This document shows positions 1 to 6,089 of a stretch of DNA of 6,089 bases, one piece after another. The notes beneath the pieces are model-generated. The model saw nothing but the letters and a program-made list of their open reading frames with translations, was not told the origin of the DNA and ran no database searches. Location of the stretch: the sequence record NC_001730.1, one strand, 5' to 3'. This DNA comes from Escherichia phage phiK. Both the position numbers and the translations under genes were made by a program. Numbering within the stretch: the stretch's first letter is position 1; each line of letters opens with the position of its first letter.

Positions 1-3
1 TTG

Positions 4-31
4 TTGACATTCCCCAATTCCTTATTAGACT
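4..31 (+). promoter_or_regulatory. Candidate sigma70-type promoter upstream of ORF1 (TTGACA N16 TAGACT)
   Basis: Perfect -35 hexamer TTGACA at 4-9, 16-nt spacer, -10-like TAGACT at 26-31 (4/6 to TATAAT). Lies about 30 nt upstream of the AGGAG/ATG of the 64..432 ORF. Motif match only. Confidence 0.25.
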
Positions 32-63
32 CTTGCTTCAACGAAACGAATCAGGAGTCTTTT

Positions 64-432
64 ATGAAGCCCGCTCACTGTCTTACTCATCCCGTACTTG
101 GTTCATGGTTTTTTAAGTGTCCCGTTTATATCCGTTATGAGCACCTTCATCACGGTCGTCTTATCAAGGTTCGCGCTGTTCGTGATTTGTCCCCGCGTCA
201 GCAGCTTATTGCTAACCCTAAAAATTGCTTTGACGTTGTTATTGCTGAGATTGATGTTACTTATGGCTCCATTACTTGGTTTGACTATGAGCATGAGGAG
301 TATGATGAGTTTGAGCCTGATGTTATAAATGGCCTCGTTAACTATATTGATATTCCTCACGTCATTCGTTCTGAGGAAGACCCTACTGTTTCTGTTGATG
401 ATATGGATTGGCTTTATGAAATTGCGGAGTAA
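64..432 (+). CDS. Hypothetical protein (about 122 aa), basic His/Cys-containing N-terminal half and strongly acidic C-terminal half; first ORF of the H-A spacer module
   Basis: ATG 64 preceded by AGGAG at 53-57 (6-nt spacing); stop TAA 430-432. Third codon positions are about 55-60% T by hand count, the same bias as canonical microvirus genes. No similarity to proteins A-H that I can recognise. Confidence 0.5.
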   Translation: MKPAHCLTHPVLGSWFFKCPVYIRYEHLHHGRLIKVRAVRDLSPRQQLIANPKNCFDVVIAEIDVTYGSITWFDYEHEEYDEFEPDVINGLVNYIDIPHVIRSEEDPTVSVDDMDWLYEIAE

Positions 433-435
433 ATT

Positions 436-525
436 ATGGAGACTGTTATCGGAAAATTTATTGCTCTGGCTGTTGTTGCTTTTATGCTGTATGGAATTAC
501 CCGCTTAATTTTGAGGTTCCCGTGA
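436..525 (+). CDS. Hypothetical 29-aa hydrophobic peptide (METVIGKFIALAVVAFMLYGITRLILRFP), predicted single transmembrane helix
   Basis: ATG 436 lies 3 nt after the ORF1 stop, with GGAG at 426-429 (6-nt spacing); stop TGA 523-525. Hydrophobic core FIALAVVAFMLYGI flanked by K7 and R23/R27. Same frame as ORF1. Too short for codon statistics to be decisive. Confidence 0.35.
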   Translation: METVIGKFIALAVVAFMLYGITRLILRFP

Positions 526-734
526 AGTATTTTAGTTTGGTTGATGAACATTATGCTTATTGCCCTGATACGAGGATTTTGCACATTACTCGCAGTCGTG
601 TTTCTGACCCTCGCTACGAGCGTTGCTTTCTTACTGATGAGGAGCATTTTGCGCTATTGGATTGGTTGAAAAACCGTCCAACTTGCGTTAATTCTTGGCA
701 ATCTTCTGAAATACCCTCTATATTGCCCTCATAG
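522..734 (+). CDS. Hypothetical protein (about 70 aa), GTG-initiated, translationally coupled to the upstream peptide ORF
   Basis: GTG 522-524 overlaps the TGA stop of the 29-aa ORF (GTGA); GAGG at 513-516 (5-nt spacing); stop TAG 732-734. No in-frame ATG exists, so the start must be non-ATG if the ORF is real. Third-position T about 50% by hand count. Confidence 0.4.
   Translation: MKYFSLVDEHYAYCPDTRILHITRSRVSDPRYERCFLTDEEHFALLDWLKNRPTCVNSWQSSEIPSILPS
695..724 (+). promoter_or_regulatory. Candidate gene A promoter (PA-like): TTGGCA N18 TATATT
   Basis: -35-like TTGGCA at 695-700 and -10-like TATATT at 719-724, 18-nt spacer. The predicted start site falls inside the downstream hairpin. phiX174 has its PA promoter in the equivalent H-A spacer. 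Motif match only. Confidence 0.3.
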
Positions 735-754
735 TTTCACTACGAGGGCTTTTT
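725..754 (+). terminator. Hairpin plus T5 run, intrinsic-terminator-like, at the end of the spacer module immediately upstream of gene A
   Basis: GCCCTC (725-730) pairs with GAGGGC (744-749); an inner 3-bp helix TAG(732-734)/CTA(740-742) leaves a 5-nt loop; followed by TTTTT 750-754. The 3' arm contains the GAGGG Shine-Dalgarno of gene A. Confidence 0.45.
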
Positions 755-757
755 CGC

Positions 758-2242
758 ATGGCTACCGAAATCTTTTCTGATGTTGTTAAATCTGTTTGGT
801 CGCACGCTACGGCTAAGCACGCCCATCTTCGTATGGCTGTTCAGGTTGATAATCGTAGTCGCCTTCTTTCTGATTTGGTTTACCAGTTGGAAAAACGCCT
901 CTCCGAAGAGACTCATCTGGATGATGAGACTTATGCCCTTTATGAATCTCAGACTGGCCTTTTGGAAGACCATATGGCACTGGTTCGGAAGTGTGCAGCC
1001 CAACTTGATAATAGTAACACTATAGACCACCGCACCCCGTTGGACCCTGAATGTGTTTTTCTTTTTGAGATGATTTGTCCAGGTGTCCGCTATGGTAAGA
1101 CGCTTAATTCGCTTTGGAGTAAGTATGCTGCCCAGTGGCCTGAGAAATTGATTCGTCAGGAGCTCGACATGGTCAAGCCTTTATCCTTTAAGGATGAGGT
1201 TGCCAAGTACATGGAAAAAATGCAGGAAAAAACACGCAAAAACCGCATGACTCAGAAAGTTATCAATGAGATGCGTATTGCTCACCAGAAAGGCTGGTTC
1301 TTTGTGTTTGACACGTTGACCCTTGCCGATGACCGTTTGCAGGCATTCAATGAAAACCCCAATGCTCTTCGTGATTATTTTAGGACTGTTGGTCGAGCTG
1401 TTCTGCGCGCTGAAGGTCGTTCGGTTAAGGATTCCTACAACGACTGCTATCGCTATCTTTGTGTGCCGGAGTTTGGAGGTCAGCACGGTCGTCTTCATTG
1501 GCACGTTGTGCATATGGTGCGGACTCTTCCTTTGGGAAGTCATGACCCTAACTTCGGTCGCCCGGTACGTAATTATCGCCAGATTAACTCGTTCCGTGGC
1601 ATGTGGCCCTATGGCTTTACGCAACCGATAGCCGTTCGTTATCAACATGACGCTTATTCTCGCAAAGGTTGGTTATGGCCTGTTGACAAATCAGGAAAAG
1701 CAATGCAGAGTAAGCCGTATCAGGCGGTCGCATGGTATGTGACCAAGTATGTAGCTAAGCAATCTGACCAGCGTCAGAAGGCTATTACCGAGAGACAAAA
1801 GAAATGCAAGAATCCATTAATGGCAATCTGTCTGAAGAAAGAATTTCGGGTGCGCAGCAGCCGGAAGCTTGGAATGGAGCTCCCGTCAATGGCTCACCTG
1901 AGCAACAAAGTGCTTCTGGAGCTGAGTCGAATCAGCTTCGATTCCAGTCCTCTTTATCAGATAGTGAAAGAGAACGCCAAAAAGCAACTGACCTTGAACA
2001 TCGGCGCGCTGCCTTTGCACGTCATTTTGGATGTGCGCCCGGAAGTGAGAAGCATGTTGAAAGCTATTCGTCGTTTGATGAAAAAGACACCAGAGTTCAA
2101 CTGGCAGAGTTCTATCGCTTCAATGACGGTCACCTTAAAAAATGGGGATATTTCTGATGAAGCACGTCAATACATTATTGATGCAGGAATTACGCCTACT
2201 GATTTGCGAGCTAAAGCGACTCAAACTTTCGGCGGTAAGTGA
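758..2242 (+). CDS. A: Gene A protein, rolling-circle replication initiator (HUH endonuclease), 494 aa
   Basis: ATG 758, stop TGA 2240-2242. Translation aligns with phiX174 A protein from ...DNSNTIDHR... onward: WFFVFDTLTLADDRL, HUH motif GRLHWHVVHM, paired catalytic tyrosines in YVTKYVAK, C-terminal ...ASMT...GGK. N-terminal 80 residues are divergent, as is usual for this family. Confidence 0.95.
   Translation: MATEIFSDVVKSVWSHATAKHAHLRMAVQVDNRSRLLSDLVYQLEKRLSEETHLDDETYALYESQTGLLEDHMALVRKCAAQLDNSNTIDHRTPLDPECVFLFEMICPGVRYGKTLNSLWSKYAAQWPEKLIRQELDMVKPLSFKDEVAKYMEKMQEKTRKNRMTQKVINEMRIAHQKGWFFVFDTLTLADDRLQAFNENPNALRDYFRTVGRAVLRAEGRSVKDSYNDCYRYLCVPEFGGQHGRLHWHVVHMVRTLPLGSHDPNFGRPVRNYRQINSFRGMWPYGFTQPIAVRYQHDAYSRKGWLWPVDKSGKAMQSKPYQAVAWYVTKYVAKQSDQRQKAITERQKKCKNPLMAICLKKEFRVRSSRKLGMELPSMAHLSNKVLLELSRISFDSSPLYQIVKENAKKQLTLNIGALPLHVILDVRPEVRSMLKAIRRLMKKTPEFNWQSSIASMTVTLKNGDISDEARQYIIDAGITPTDLRAKATQTFGGK
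1001..1030 (+). other. Viral (+) strand origin of rolling-circle replication (A-protein recognition and nick site)
   Basis: CAACTTGATAATAGTAACACTATAGACCAC matches the phiX174 origin 30-mer as I recall it (CAACTTGATATTAATAACACTATAGACCAC) at 28/30, both differences in the AT-rich spacer. Lies inside gene A at the homologous codon position (LDNSNTIDH). Expected nick between G1007 and A1008. Confidence 0.85.
1211..2242 (+). CDS. A*: A* protein, in-frame internal restart within gene A (candidate)
   Basis: In-frame ATGs at 1211 and 1220 (MEKMQEKTRKNRM...) align with the phiX174 A* start (MKSRRGFAIQRLMNAMRQAHADGWF versus MQEKTRKNRMTQKVINEMRIAHQKGWF); GGATGAGG-like SD at about 1193-1199. Inferred by homology; which ATG is used is unknown. 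Confidence 0.35.
   Translation: MEKMQEKTRKNRMTQKVINEMRIAHQKGWFFVFDTLTLADDRLQAFNENPNALRDYFRTVGRAVLRAEGRSVKDSYNDCYRYLCVPEFGGQHGRLHWHVVHMVRTLPLGSHDPNFGRPVRNYRQINSFRGMWPYGFTQPIAVRYQHDAYSRKGWLWPVDKSGKAMQSKPYQAVAWYVTKYVAKQSDQRQKAITERQKKCKNPLMAICLKKEFRVRSSRKLGMELPSMAHLSNKVLLELSRISFDSSPLYQIVKENAKKQLTLNIGALPLHVILDVRPEVRSMLKAIRRLMKKTPEFNWQSSIASMTVTLKNGDISDEARQYIIDAGITPTDLRAKATQTFGGK
1804..2157 (+). CDS. B: Gene B protein, internal scaffolding protein, 117 aa, overprinted within gene A in a different frame
   Basis: ATG 1804, stop TGA 2155-2157. C-terminus ...RVQLAEFYRFNDGHLKKWGYF matches phiX174 B ...RIQPAEFYRFHDAEVNTFGYF; acidic, low-complexity N-terminal region typical of B. Confidence 0.9.
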   Translation: MQESINGNLSEERISGAQQPEAWNGAPVNGSPEQQSASGAESNQLRFQSSLSDSERERQKATDLEHRRAAFARHFGCAPGSEKHVESYSSFDEKDTRVQLAEFYRFNDGHLKKWGYF

Positions 2243-3030: not shown

Positions 3031-3032
3031 TT

Positions 3033-3062
3033 ATGGGCCTTCGGGCCCCTTAAGGATTATTA
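3033..3062 (+). promoter_or_regulatory. J-F intercistronic hairpin (GGGCC-TTCG-GGCCC) plus AAGGA ribosome-binding site for F
   Basis: GGGCC 3035-3039 pairs with GGCCC 3044-3048 across a TTCG tetraloop; AAGGA 3052-3056 sits 6 nt before the F ATG. phiX174 has a comparable GC hairpin in its J-F spacer (TJ terminator / mRNA-stabilising element). Confidence 0.5.
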
Positions 3063-4358
3063 ATGTCTAATGTACAAACTTCAGCTGAACGTGAAATTGT
3101 TGACCTCTCTCATCTTGCTTTTGACTGTGGCATGATTGGTCGCTTGAAAACTGTTTCATGGACTCCTGTTATCGCTGGCGATTCCTTTGAGCTTGATGCT
3201 GTTGGTGCTTTGCGTCTTTCTCCTCTGCGTCGTGGTTTAGCCATTGATTCTAAGGTTGACTTTTTCACTTTCTATATTCCGCATCGTCATGTTTATGGTG
3301 ATCAGTGGATTCAATTTATGCGTGATGGTGTTGATGCTTCGCCGCTTCCTTCCGTTACTACTACTAAGTATCCGGATGATGCTGGTTATGTTGGTACTAT
3401 TGTTCCTAAGAGCAACCGTATTCCTAAGTTTTTGCATCAGTCTTATCTGAATATTTATAATAACTATTTCCGTGCGCCGTGGATGCCTGAGCGTACTGAA
3501 GCTAATCCTTCAAACTTAGATCGTGATGATTCTCGTTATGGATTCCGTTGTTGCCATCTTAAAACTATTTGGTCTGCTCCTCTTCCTCCGGAAACTAAGC
3601 TCGCTGAGCAAATGGGCATTGAAAGCAATTCCATTGATATTATGGGTTTGCAGGCCGCTTATGCGCAGCTTCACACTGAGCAGGAGCGTACTTATTTTAT
3701 GCAGCGTTACCGTGATGTTATCTCCAGCTTTGGCGGTTCAACCTCCTATGATGCCGATAACCGACCGTTGCTTGTTATGCATACCGATTTTTGGGCTTCC
3801 GGTTACGACGTTGACGGTACCGACCAATCTTCCCTTGGACAGTTTTCGGGGCGAGTTCAACAGACGTTTAAACACTCAGTGCCGCGATTCTTCGTGCCTG
3901 AGCATGGTGTCATGATGACTTTGATGCTGGTTCGCTTCCCGCCTATCAGTCCTTTGGAGCATCATTATCTTGTTGGTCGTAATAATTTGACTTATACCGA
4001 CCTTGCTGGTGACCCGGCTTTGATTGGTAATTTGCCGCCGCGTGAGATTTCTTATCAGGACCTTTTCCGTGATGGTCGCCCGGGCATTAAGATTAAGGTT
4101 GCCGAGTCTATCTGGTATCGTACTCATCCGGATTATGTTAACTACAAGTATCAGTTACTTGAGGGTTTCCCGTTCCTTGATGATGCGCCCGGTACGACTA
4201 GTGGTGATGACCTTCAGAAGGCTATTCTCATTGACCATAATGACTATAATGCCTGTTTCCAGTCTCAGCAGTTGCTTCAGTGGAATAATCAGGCTCGTTA
4301 TAATGTTAATGTTTATCGCCATATTCCTACTGTTCGTGATTCTATTATGACCTCTTAA
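3063..4358 (+). CDS. F: Gene F protein, major capsid protein, 431 aa
   Basis: ATG 3063, stop TAA 4356-4358. Extensive identity to phiX174 F: MSN.QT.AER, TPVIAGDSFE.DAVGALRLSPLRRGLAIDS, YGFRCCHLK, IDIMGLQAAYA, SGYDVDGTDQ.SLGQFSGRVQQT, LPPREIS, QLLQWN, TRDSIMTS. Confidence 0.97.
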   Translation: MSNVQTSAEREIVDLSHLAFDCGMIGRLKTVSWTPVIAGDSFELDAVGALRLSPLRRGLAIDSKVDFFTFYIPHRHVYGDQWIQFMRDGVDASPLPSVTTTKYPDDAGYVGTIVPKSNRIPKFLHQSYLNIYNNYFRAPWMPERTEANPSNLDRDDSRYGFRCCHLKTIWSAPLPPETKLAEQMGIESNSIDIMGLQAAYAQLHTEQERTYFMQRYRDVISSFGGSTSYDADNRPLLVMHTDFWASGYDVDGTDQSSLGQFSGRVQQTFKHSVPRFFVPEHGVMMTLMLVRFPPISPLEHHYLVGRNNLTYTDLAGDPALIGNLPPREISYQDLFRDGRPGIKIKVAESIWYRTHPDYVNYKYQLLEGFPFLDDAPGTTSGDDLQKAILIDHNDYNACFQSQQLLQWNNQARYNVNVYRHIPTVRDSIMTS

Positions 4359-4361
4359 TTC

Positions 4362-4391
4362 ATGGGCCTTCGGGCCCATTAAGGATTTTTT
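4362..4391 (+). promoter_or_regulatory. F-G intercistronic hairpin (ATGGGCC-TTCG-GGCCCAT) plus AAGGA ribosome-binding site and T6 run
   Basis: 7-bp stem 4362-4368/4373-4379 with TTCG tetraloop; AAGGA 4381-4385; TTTTTT 4386-4391 directly before the G ATG. 27/30 identical to the J-F module at 3033-3062. Confidence 0.5.
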
Positions 4392-4955
4392 ATGTATCAA
4401 ATTTTTGTTACTAAGCATGATACCGCCATTCAGACCTCCCGTTTTTCTGTTACTGGCAGTATCACTCCTGTTGCGCCTACTGGTAATATCCCTGTTATCA
4501 ATACTGGTAATATTACTGCTGAGCATGCTGTTGTTAGTCTTTATGCTAATTTGACTGCTGGCACCTCTTCTGATGGTTCTTTTATTGTTGCTATGAAGGT
4601 TGACACTTCTCCTGCTGACCCCAATTGCGTTATCTCTGCTGGTGTTAACCTTAGTTTTGCTGGTACCTCATACCCGATTGTTGGCATTGTTCGTTTTGAG
4701 TCTGCTTCTGACCAGCCCACTTCTATTGCTGGTAGCCAGATTGAGCATTACCCAATTGAAATGTCTGTAGGTTCTGGTGGTGTTTGTTCTGCTCGCGATT
4801 GCGTTACTGTTGATATTCATCCTCGCGCTTTTGGCAATAATGTTTTTGTTGGCGTGATTTGTTCTAGTGCTAAATGGACCTCCGGTCGTGTGCTTGGTAC
4901 CATCGCTACGACTCAGGTTATTCGTGAGTATCAGGTCCTTCAGCCGCTTAAATAA
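4392..4955 (+). CDS. G: Gene G protein, major spike protein, 187 aa
   Basis: ATG 4392, stop TAA 4953-4955. Matches phiX174 G in conserved blocks: VRFES, KDCVT.D..PR..GNNV.VG and C-terminal L.QVI.E...LQPLK. Confidence 0.95.
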
Positions 4956-5090
4956 AAGGCCGCCGCACTCCTGGTTATGTGTCTGCCCAGTGTAGGGCGG
5001 ACCGAGCCATACGGAGATACCCGATAAACTAGGAACGTGGAAGGCGTTAGCCGCCTTCCCTCCTGCTAAGCCCAAAAAGGAGCTTACAAT
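4956..5090 (+). other. Structured GC-rich G-H intergenic region; candidate complementary (-) strand origin recognised by DnaG primase
   Basis: 135-nt non-coding spacer (I recall about 11 nt in phiX174) with two stable hairpins: 4981-5002 (GTCTGCCC/GGGCGGAC, 6-nt loop, one G-U pair) and 5039-5059 (GGAAGGCG/CGCCTTCC, 5-nt loop). Ends with the H SD AGGAG at 5078-5082. G4-type phages carry a primase-dependent origin in a hairpin-rich spacer between late genes. Assignment here is by analogy. Confidence 0.4.
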
Positions 5091-6089
5091 ATGCTTGGTA
5101 GTATCATTGGAGGCATTGGTTCATCGCTGCTCGGAGGAATTGCTTCCGGCGGTATCTCCAGCCTCCTTAATAAAATGTTCAGTAAAATGCCAGAACATGC
5201 CGCCTCTTCTGCTGGCCTTACTAATGGTCAAGGTACTATTGGTATGGATACTGATGCTGGTATTCAGTCTGCTATTCAGGGTTCTAATGTTCCTCCTGCT
5301 GGTCAATTGCCCGCTTCTAATACTTCTGGTGTTATGGCTGATGCTGGTAATATGATTCGTAATGCTGGTAGAGCTTTGCTTGATGGTACGATTCAGGCTG
5401 GCTCTGATAAGGTTAAAGAGGCTCTTATTGATAAGTTGGTTGGAGGTAATGATGCTAAAGACCGAGGAAAGGCAACCCGTGATTACTTGGCAGCGGCTTT
5501 CCCTGAGCTCAACCCGTGGGAGCGTGCTGGAGCTGGTGCTTCCACTGCCGGGTTAGAGTCTTCTGCTCAGAATCAACAAAAAGAGATGCTTAAAATGCAA
5601 CTGGATAACCAGAAGGATATTGCTAAGATGCAGATGAATAACAATTTGCAGATTGCTGGAATTCAGTCCGCTACATCTCGTCAAAATACGAAGGATTCTG
5701 TTTATGCCCAGAATGAAATGCTTCAGTATAATCAACGTGAGTCGCAGGCACGCGTTGCGTCTATCCTCGCCAACACTGACCTTACGACTAAGCAGGCCAC
5801 CCATGAAATTATGAGGATGGCTCTTACTCGTGCTCAGGAAACTGGTCAGCATTTGACTAACTCTCAGATTATGGCTTTGGAGAAAAAGGTTTATGCAGAA
5901 ATTGGAAAAATTCATCAAGATACTCAAAATTCTCGTTATGGTAGCTCTCAAGTTACTGCCGCAGCGAAAGACGTTACGAATATGATTACTGACGCCTCTT
6001 CAGGTCTTGCTGATTGGGCCTCCCAGCAGTGGGATTCGTTCTTTAAGGATGGCAAGTCTGATGGCATTCCTCTCAATACTAGAAAATAA
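5091..6089 (+). CDS. H: Gene H protein, minor spike / DNA pilot protein, 332 aa
   Basis: ATG 5091 (AGGAG 5078-5082), stop TAA 6087-6089. Matches phiX174 H: glycine-rich N-terminus, SAIQGSNVP, TRDYLAAAFPELN.WERAGA, KMQLDNQK, IAGIQSATSRQNTKD.VYAQNEML, ARVASI, QNSRYGSS, KDGK.DGI. Confidence 0.95.
   Translation: MLGSIIGGIGSSLLGGIASGGISSLLNKMFSKMPEHAASSAGLTNGQGTIGMDTDAGIQSAIQGSNVPPAGQLPASNTSGVMADAGNMIRNAGRALLDGTIQAGSDKVKEALIDKLVGGNDAKDRGKATRDYLAAAFPELNPWERAGAGASTAGLESSAQNQQKEMLKMQLDNQKDIAKMQMNNNLQIAGIQSATSRQNTKDSVYAQNEMLQYNQRESQARVASILANTDLTTKQATHEIMRMALTRAQETGQHLTNSQIMALEKKVYAEIGKIHQDTQNSRYGSSQVTAAAKDVTNMITDASSGLADWASQQWDSFFKDGKSDGIPLNTRK

What the first reader, a model, noticed from the sequence alone, without database searches (positions are those of the whole stretch)
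4956..5090. 135-nt hairpin-rich G-H spacer, likely primase-dependent minus-strand origin
Other intercistronic gaps among genes A-H are 33 nt or less, but G-H is 135 nt, GC-rich and non-coding, with two stable stem-loops (4981-5002 and 5039-5059) and CTG triplets at 4971-4973 and 4983-4985, the type of triplet DnaG initiates opposite. G4-group phages start complementary-strand synthesis with DnaG primase at a hairpin-containing origin in a late-gene spacer, whereas phiX174 uses a PriA primosome site. I believe the alpha3/St-1 origins were mapped to this spacer, but I cannot confirm that from memory.
Basis: partly seen in the sequence, partly recalled or inferred. Interest (0 to 1): 0.5.

Follow-up and report, generated by a model that had tools for sequence, protein, structure and literature searches.

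The report
Primase-dependent complementary-strand origin, G4 type

Summary
The window is a complete alpha3-like microvirus genome (Alphatrevirus), 94% identical to St-1 and probably phiK. The G-H spacer (4956-5090) is real: 135 nt, 56% G+C against 45% for the genome, and closed in all three + strand frames. Every other gap from C to H is 33 nt or less.

The spacer is 77-81% identical over its whole length to the F-G spacer of G4-group phages. The G4 reference record annotates the 28-nt RNA primer and the complementary-strand origin in that spacer.

Hairpin I (5039-5059) is kept in all 21 phages compared. The predicted primer is pppAGGAGGGAAGGCGGCUAACGCCUUCCAC.

It shares its 3' arm with a longer stem (4958-4964 with 4996-5003), which matches the long 5' hairpin predicted for G4, and only that stem shows compensatory changes.

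Among alpha3-like phages the module is 94.5% conserved. Third codon positions of the flanking genes are 68-73% conserved.

Verdict: a G4-type, DnaG-plus-SSB origin, described for St-1, phiK and alpha3 in 1979. Interpretation supported, two details corrected, novelty nil.

The parts
4956..5090 (+). G-H intercistronic spacer on the viral (+) strand. It holds the origin module (about 4956-5075) and then the ribosome-binding site of H.
   Evidence: ORFs, Pfam for G and H, homology to the G4 F-G spacer.
4958..5003 (+). 5' domain, matching the long 5' hairpin predicted for G4 (stem-loop III in my recollection of the G4 numbering). The outer stem pairs 4958-4964 with 4996-5000 and 5002-5003, with A5001 bulged.
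   Evidence: The seven outer pairs are formed in 146 of 147 cells in the fixed register (the one exception is WA45) across 21 phages. Two pairs show exact compensatory changes: 4961/4999 C-G to T-A in 5 phages, and 4962/4998 G-C to A-T in 2 phages. The stem is also kept in two plasmid copies.
4981..5002 (+). It is an alternative fold that uses the same 3' arm as the outer stem.
   Evidence: -6.8 kcal/mol in the window. All but one of its changes are one-sided, and only six of its eight pairs are well kept; the second pair forms in 4 of 21 phages. The exception is one both-sided change in WA45 (T-A to C-G). Its 5' arm is changed in plasmid NZ_CP062859.
5010..5024 (+). Central block TACGGAGATACCCGA, nearly invariant across both genera. 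A 3-bp CGG/CCG hairpin (5012-5014 with 5021-5023) is possible. The 6-bp G4 stem-loop II is absent here.
   Evidence: Alignment A2. At the G4 hairpin II columns only 46.8% of cells are paired. RNAalifold picks the 3-bp stem.
5039..5059 (+). Hairpin I: GGAAGGCG-TTAGC-CGCCTTCC. It contains the mini-hairpin motif GCGTTAGC at 5044-5051.
   Evidence: 100% paired in 21 phages, with one compensatory pair (5042/5056, A-T here and C-G in G4-like phages). The loop varies only at the N positions of GCG(N1-2)AGC. PMC13037366.
5037..5064 (+). Predicted template of the 28-nt RNA primer, read 3' to 5'. The primer would be pppAGGAGGGAAGGCGGCUAACGCCUUCCAC.
   Evidence: Aligned position by position with the G4 feature 'RNA primer of replication' 3970-3997.
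5063..5065 (+). CTG start triplet. Primer synthesis is predicted to begin opposite T5064.
   Evidence: Aligns with G4 CTG 3996-3998 and is invariant in 21 phages and 2 plasmids. The rule that synthesis starts at the T of CTG, 3' of the stem-loops, is from PMC6783573.
5066..5072 (+). Conserved 3' flank C(T/A)AAGCC. It probably lies in the SSB-free stretch where primase binds.
   Evidence: Conserved in both genera and in the plasmid copies. The SSB-free flanks are described for G4 in PMC6783573. The binding role here is inferred.
5077..5082 (+). AAGGAG Shine-Dalgarno sequence of gene H, 8 nt before ATG 5091. It is not part of the origin.
   Evidence: Read from the sequence. An RBS is annotated at the matching place in alpha3 record M25640. 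This 3' end follows the lineage of the H gene, not that of the module.

Best explanation
The spacer is the origin of complementary (minus) strand synthesis of the G4 type. The steps below are shown for G4 in the literature and inferred here from homology.
1. After injection the circular viral + strand is coated with host SSB.
2. The folded module (hairpin I at 5039-5059, the long 5' stem-loop at 4958-5003 and the conserved block between them) keeps SSB off and phases it, which leaves short naked stretches.
3. DnaG primase binds there without PriA, DnaB or RNA polymerase.
4. Primase starts opposite T5064 of 5'-CTG-3' (5063-5065) and copies hairpin I into an RNA of up to about 28 nt (pppAGGAGGGAAGGCGGCUAACGCCUUCCAC).
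5. DNA polymerase III holoenzyme extends the primer around the circle to give the replicative form.

The last 15 nt or so of the spacer are the ribosome-binding site of H.
For: Shown here:
- Full-length homology to the F-G spacer of G4-group phages: 81% to NC6 and ID52, E = 9e-23; 77% to G4.
- The G4 reference annotates the primer at 3970-3997 and the complementary-strand origin at 3998 inside the aligned block.
- The CTG, hairpin I and the flank TCCCT(C/A)CTGC(T/A)AAGCC are kept in nearly all 21 phages (NC35 has one substitution in the TCCCT).
- Three pairs carry compensatory changes, and the structure beats all slid registers.
- Pairwise identity of the module is 0.945. Gene G is 0.730, gene H 0.844, and third codon positions 0.68-0.73.
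- The same module sits in a different gene context in the two genera (F-[ori]-G-H in G4, F-G-[ori]-H here). Its function therefore does not depend on the neighbouring genes.
- It lies on the packaged strand.

From the literature:
- G4ori needs only primase and SSB, starts at the T of the CTG 3' of three stem-loops, and gives a primer of up to 28 nt (PMC6783573).
- St-1 and alpha3 have the same hairpin I, with GCGTTAGC, at their origin. The origins of St-1, phiK and alpha3 were sequenced as dnaG-dependent origins by Sims, Capon & Dressler 1979 (cited in PMC13037366).
- The window is probably phiK. PhiK is the only Alphatrevirus species missing from the hits, and St-1 is reported as most similar to phiK and alpha3.
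Against: - No priming experiment can be run here, and the 1979 primary paper is not held. The experimental link to this exact sequence therefore rests on homology and a secondary citation.
- G4 stem-loop II is not conserved in alpha3-like phages.
- The 5' domain is not energetically distinctive (z = -0.85) and has competing folds.
- Compensatory changes would equally fit hairpins acting in the mRNA.
Confidence: 0.93

Rival explanations
1. The hairpins act mainly in the polycistronic mRNA, as a partial terminator or stabiliser after gene G, or as a damper of H translation. H is needed in far fewer copies than G. On this reading the DNA origin lies elsewhere.
For: - The spacer is transcribed in the same sense.
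- It ends in the RBS of H.
- The J-F and F-G gaps carry clearly RNA-style GGGCC-UUCG-GGCCC hairpins.
- Covariation cannot tell DNA pairing from RNA pairing.
Against: - No T-run follows either hairpin, and the terminator scan finds nothing in 4956-5090.
- No Rfam family matches.
- The same module lies upstream of a different gene (G) in G4, where it is the mapped origin.
- Conservation covers the CTG and its single-stranded flank, which an RNA hairpin role does not explain.
- A secondary RNA-level effect is not excluded.
Confidence: 0.04
2. The complementary strand starts at a phiX174-type PriA primosome assembly site, or at an RNA-polymerase-dependent origin as in M13. That site would lie elsewhere in the genome, for instance in the 757-nt H-A region, and the G-H module would be a relic.
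For: - The H-A region (1-757) is long, and I did not examine it closely.
- The H-A region of phiX174 has been linked to second-strand synthesis (PMC3606162).
Against: - Nothing in the window resembles the phiX174 F-G primosome site. The best matches are 8-9 nt with E of 1.9 or more.
- The F-G gap here is only 33 nt.
- A relic would not be held at 94.5% identity, with compensatory changes, between two fast-evolving genes.
- No promoter-like site falls in the spacer.
Confidence: 0.02
3. The spacer is coding. The candidates are the 135-aa ORF on the minus strand (4668-5075) and the 42-aa + strand ORF (4867-4995).
For: One minus-strand frame has no stop across most of the spacer in most relatives.
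Against: - Neither ORF has a Pfam match.
- All annotated genes of these phages are on the + strand.
- Spacer length varies (134, 135 or 136 nt) through single-base indels in the A-run.
- All + strand frames are closed.
- The substitution pattern is that of paired stems, not codons.
Confidence: 0.01

Closest known systems
Bacteriophage G4 origin of complementary-strand synthesis (G4 oric, F-G spacer, G4 nt 3884-4019)
   Same: - Homologous over the whole length (77-81% identity).
- Same order of elements: long 5' stem-loop, the conserved TACGGAGATAC block, an 8-bp hairpin I with a GCG(N)NAGC loop, then CCCT(C/A)CTGC(T/A)AAGCC with the CTG start, then the RBS of the next gene.
- On the viral strand.
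   Different: - It lies between G and H, not between F and G.
- The hairpin I loop is TTAGC rather than AAAGC, and one stem pair is A-T rather than C-G.
- The 6-bp stem-loop II of G4 is missing: the 14 or so nt between the central block and hairpin I are unrelated.
- The two innermost pairs of the G4 stem III are mismatches here.
Negative-strand origins of St-1, phiK and alpha3 (Sims, Capon & Dressler 1979, J Biol Chem 254:12615, as cited in PMC13037366)
   Same: - The spacer is 98% identical to that of St-1 and 95% to that of alpha3.
- Hairpin I and the CTG context are identical.
- The window is probably phiK itself.
   Different: Nothing of substance. Against St-1 there are two substitutions (4972 and 5008) and one fewer A in the A-run. 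I could not read the 1979 paper to compare the mapped start.
phiX174 primosome assembly site (PriA/n' site, F-G spacer)
   Same: It does the same job, starting the complementary strand on SSB-coated viral DNA from a structured late-gene spacer (PMC3606162).
   Different: There is no sequence similarity. Going by the G4 literature, the mechanism also differs: primase alone rather than a PriA-DnaB-DnaC-DnaT primosome (PMC6783573).

Membership tests
G4-type primase-dependent complementary-strand origin | Sequence homology to the mapped G4 oric | tested here: met
   81% over 139 nt to NC6 and ID52, E = 9e-23; 77% to G4; alignments.
G4-type primase-dependent complementary-strand origin | A stable hairpin I that forms the primer template, just 5' of the start site | tested here: met
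   5039-5059: 8 bp, 100% paired in 21 phages, one compensatory pair; z = -3.25; the only perfect hairpin of 8 bp or more in the genome.
G4-type primase-dependent complementary-strand origin | A 5'-CTG-3' start triplet 3' of the stem-loops | tested here: met
   CTG 5063-5065 aligns with G4 3996-3998, next to the annotated primer and origin. It is invariant. The rule comes from PMC6783573.
G4-type primase-dependent complementary-strand origin | Two further upstream stem-loops (II and III) that phase SSB | tested here: inconclusive
   Stem III outer helix is conserved with two compensatory pairs. The G4 stem II columns are paired in only 46.8% of cells, and in alpha3-like phages the stem is absent. 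Only a 3-bp CGG/CCG stem remains.
G4-type primase-dependent complementary-strand origin | Located on the packaged (+) strand in non-coding DNA | tested here: met
   All genes are on the + strand, and the + frames of the spacer are closed.
G4-type primase-dependent complementary-strand origin | Priming by DnaG plus SSB alone, rifampicin-resistant and independent of PriA | not testable with these tools
   Reported for G4 (PMC6783573). For St-1, phiK and alpha3 it is known to me only through the title of Sims et al. 1979 as cited in PMC13037366.
phiX174-type PriA primosome assembly site | Similarity to the phiX174 F-G spacer site | tested here: not met
   Only 8-9 nt chance matches, E of 1.9 or more.
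Intrinsic (rho-independent) terminator | A G+C-rich hairpin followed by a T-run | tested here: not met
   No site within 4956-5090 in the scan. Hairpin I is followed by CTCCTGCTAAGCCC.
Any curated RNA family (Rfam 15) | A covariance-model match | tested here: not met
   Best E-values are 0.68-0.84, to unrelated eukaryotic families. Nothing reaches gathering score.

The most novel reading that the evidence does not exclude
The roughly 120-nt G4-type origin may be a self-contained, horizontally mobile priming cassette.
- It occupies different intergenic slots in two microvirus genera.
- It is replaced by an unrelated hairpin element in ID2-type G4 relatives.
- It also occurs, at 72-78% identity and antisense to all genes, in 8-10 kb satellite-like E. 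coli plasmids that encode an AlpA-like regulator, a small-terminase-like protein and a resolvase.

If those plasmid copies work, small replicons would be borrowing a phage primase-recruiting signal. A second, weaker idea is that the 5' domain switches between two mutually exclusive hairpins that share one arm.
Probability: 0.3. Interest if true: 0.35.

Novelty: already known. Interest (0 to 1): 0.1.

Why it matters
The finding matters little as a discovery. The G4-type origin is a textbook model of primase recruitment, and its alpha3, St-1 and phiK versions were sequenced in 1979.

The check still has three uses:
- It gives exact coordinates in this genome for the start triplet (5063-5065), the predicted primer template (5037-5064) and the conserved stems.
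- Comparison of 21 phages shows which 5' stem is under selection, and that stem-loop II is dispensable in evolutionary terms.
- It turns up related copies in small E. coli plasmids, which could be tested as single-strand initiation signals.

Tried and rejected
- **Primary papers not held.** Sims et al. 1979, Fiddes et al. 1978 and Rokyta et al. 2006 could not be read. A search for open papers placing the alpha3 origin between genes G and H found none.
- **Genome-contig scan.** TCCCTNCTGCNAAGCC has only 14 specified bases, too few for 596 Gb.
- **IMG/VR scans.** They returned known microviruses, three new alpha3-like contigs (L023, L027, L033), and one hit in a 48-kb G+C-rich contig with none of the flanking module motifs, which I treat as chance (L037).
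- **Search with the G4 spacer.** It returned only G4-group records, mostly replicate ID11 genomes, and added no diversity.
- **Rfam.** Nothing.
- **Terminator reading.** Rejected, because there is no T-run.
- **PriA-site reading.** Rejected, because there is no similarity.
- **Coding reading.** Rejected.
- **Energy alone.** It cannot settle the 5' fold. The MFE, the centroid, RNAalifold and the covariation-supported stem all differ.
- **Plasmid copies.** They fold no better than shuffles, so I do not claim that they function.

Full report
**What the window is.** The 6089 bases are a complete microvirus genome with the gene order A(B,K)-C-D(E)-J-F-G-H, all on the + strand.
- It is 94% identical to St-1, 93% to Lilleven and 90.5% to alpha3.
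- Every species of the genus Alphatrevirus except phiK appears among the hits. St-1 is reported to be most similar to phiK and alpha3 (PMC3324380).
- The window is therefore probably phiK or a very close relative. I recall that phiK is 6089 nt long, but I could not check this.

**The observation.**
- G (Pfam Phage_G) ends at 4955 and H (Pfam Microvir_H) starts at 5091, so the spacer is 135 nt.
- The gaps C-D, D-J, J-F and F-G are 26, 1, 32 and 33 nt.
- All alpha3-like phages I fetched have a G-H spacer of 134-136 nt.
- The spacer has 56.3% G+C against 44.9% for the genome, and it lies in the G+C-richest stretch of the genome.
- All three + strand frames are closed within it in 12 phages.
- GGAAGGCG-TTAGC-CGCCTTCC at 5039-5059 is the only perfect hairpin of 8 bp or more in the genome, where 0.46 would be expected (in mononucleotide shuffles).
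- As single-stranded DNA, 5030-5075 folds with z = -3.25 and the whole spacer with z = -2.76.
However, the 5' domain 4956-5010 is no more stable than shuffled sequence (z = -0.85).
- CTG occurs at 4971, 4983 and 5063.

**Homology.**
- A sensitive search with the spacer finds all alpha3-like phages at 90-98% identity. It also finds four records of G4-group phages (NC6, ID52 twice, Shigella phage vB_1081) at 81% over 139 nt, E = 9e-23.
- In those phages the match is exactly the F-G spacer: F ends at 3835 and G starts at 3972 in NC6.
- The G4 reference record annotates 'RNA primer of replication' at 3970-3997 and 'origin of compl. strand synthesis' at 3998 in that spacer.
- In the alignment G4 hairpin I (GGACGGCG-AAAGC-CGCCGTCC) lies over window 5039-5059, and G4 CTG 3996-3998 lies over window 5063-5065.
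- The G4 primer read off the annotation is pppAGUAGGGACGGCGGCUUUCGCCGUCCAU. This fits the published description: 28 nt, first C at position 9, followed by an 18-nt stretch free of A (PMC6783573).
- The homologous template in the window is 5037-5064, which predicts the primer pppAGGAGGGAAGGCGGCUAACGCCUUCCAC.

**Comparative structure.** I aligned 21 distinct modules: 16 alpha3-like, including three from IMG/VR metagenomes, and 5 G4-like.
- *Hairpin I.* It is paired in every sequence. It carries one compensatory pair (5042/5056, A-T in alpha3-like and C-G in G4-like phages). Its loop has six variants (TT, CA, TA, AA, T, A before AGC), and all of them keep GCG(N1-2)AGC. That is the very stable 'mini-hairpin' motif discussed for G4, St-1 and alpha3 in PMC13037366.
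- *Outer stem of the 5' domain.* The helix pairs 4958-4964 with 4996-5000 and 5002-5003, with A5001 bulged. It has two exact compensatory pairs. C-G becomes T-A at 4961/4999 in alpha3, ID32, WA13, WA45 and L023. G-C becomes A-T at 4962/4998 in Lilleven and NC28, which differ in the interior of the domain, so this change probably arose twice. By my reading of the alignment, WA45 keeps the stem by shifting the bulge by one base.
On that fold all changes but one are one-sided, T.G to T-A or G-C to G.T. The exception is a both-sided change in WA45 (T-A to C-G). In plasmid NZ_CP062859 its 5' arm is altered while the outer stem stays intact.
- *Which fold.* The comparative evidence favours the outer stem, which matches the long 5' hairpin predicted for G4. 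I recall this as stem-loop III in the G4 numbering, but I could not check that. Energy alone does not decide: the MFE, the centroid and RNAalifold each give a different 5' fold.
- *Stem-loop II.* The 6-bp stem-loop II of G4 is not conserved. The aligned columns pair in 46.8% of cells, and the 14 or so nt between the invariant TACGGAGATAC block and hairpin I are unrelated in the two genera.

**Selection.**
- Across 12 collinear alpha3-like genomes, mean pairwise identity of 4956-5075 is 0.945.
- Gene G is 0.730, gene H 0.844, and third codon positions of F, G and H are 0.68-0.73.
- The module is thus an island of constraint in the most variable part of the genome.
- Between genera it is the most similar stretch longer than 100 nt: 77-81% against 68-72% for coding regions.
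- Its position relative to gene G is swapped: F-G-[ori]-H here and F-[ori]-G-H in G4.
- ID2-type G4 relatives and phiX174 lack the module.

**Rival readings.**
- No terminator-like site and no promoter-like site falls in the spacer.
- No Rfam family matches.
- Nothing in the window resembles the phiX174 F-G primosome site (the role of that site is from PMC3606162).
- The stop-free frame on the minus strand has no Pfam match, and single-base indels in the A-run cross it.
- I cannot exclude a secondary role of the hairpins in the mRNA. It would not explain the conserved CTG and flank, nor the presence of the same module upstream of a different gene in G4.

**Mechanism.** This is inferred from homology, and the G4 steps are taken from PMC6783573.
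1. SSB coats the injected + strand.
2. The folded module excludes and phases SSB.
3. DnaG binds the naked flanks.
4. DnaG starts at T5064 of CTG 5063-5065 and transcribes hairpin I.
5. Polymerase III holoenzyme then takes over.

The last 15 nt or so of the spacer (AAGGAG at 5077-5082) are the RBS of H.

**Novelty.** None. The dnaG-dependent negative-strand origins of St-1, phiK and alpha3 were sequenced by Sims, Capon & Dressler in 1979 (cited in PMC13037366). I could not read that paper.

**Side observation.** The module occurs at 72-78% identity in two families of 8-10 kb E. coli plasmids, antisense to all their genes. The TCCCTCCTGCTAAGCC priming context and a GCGAAGC motif are kept. One of these plasmids encodes an AlpA-like regulator, an Sf6-like small terminase and a resolvase. 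These copies fold no better than shuffles, so whether they function is open.

Noticed in passing
window 3031-3062 and 4359-4391: The J-F and F-G gaps carry nearly identical elements: a GGGCC-TTCG-GGCCC hairpin (3035-3048 and 4364-4377) followed by TTAAGGATT and the start codon of the next gene. In RNA this would be a C(UUCG)G tetraloop hairpin. They may be transcript-level terminators or stabilisers duplicated in front of F and G.
   Followed up: partly
window 1001-1030: A 30-nt block inside gene A (CAACTTGATAATAGTAACACTATAGACCAC) is 92-93% identical to G4 500-529 and to phiX174 4297-4334. The phiX174 stretch contains that record's annotated origin of viral-strand synthesis at 4306. This is the separate + strand origin.
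   Followed up: partly
L020 (phage ID2) 3830-3928: ID2-type Gequatrovirus phages have an unrelated 99-nt F-G spacer. It holds a long hairpin (TGACAGGGGG...CCCCCTGTCA, z = -4.4), then GCGCAAGC and GCGTTAGC motifs and a CTG. It may be a different or minimal primase origin.
   Followed up: partly
L040 (CP057337) 1083-1201 minus strand; L039 (NZ_CP062859) 867-985: Copies of the G4-type origin module, 72-78% identical, sit in 8-10 kb non-mobilizable E. coli plasmids, antisense to all annotated genes. The plasmid encodes an AlpA-like HTH protein, an Sf6-like small terminase and a resolvase, so it resembles a phage satellite. Whether the module works there is unknown.
   Followed up: partly
window 5047-5048 (alignment A2 columns 99-100): Across 21 phages the loop of hairpin I varies only at the N positions of GCG(N1-2)AGC, in six variants. 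This fits selection on the 'mini-hairpin' motif described in PMC13037366.
   Followed up: partly
window 1-757: The long H-A region contains small + strand ORFs that are annotated as hypothetical proteins in phage Lilleven. Among alpha3-like phages it is about 85% conserved. I did not examine its function.
   Followed up: no
window 5076-5090 (alignment A2 columns 128-143): The 3' end of the spacer comes in three discrete types (GGAGCTTACAAT, GGAGTTACAGCG, GGAGACTTTCAGCT), each going with a matching start of gene H and not with the variants of the 5' domain. This suggests recombination breakpoints at or next to the origin module.
   Followed up: no
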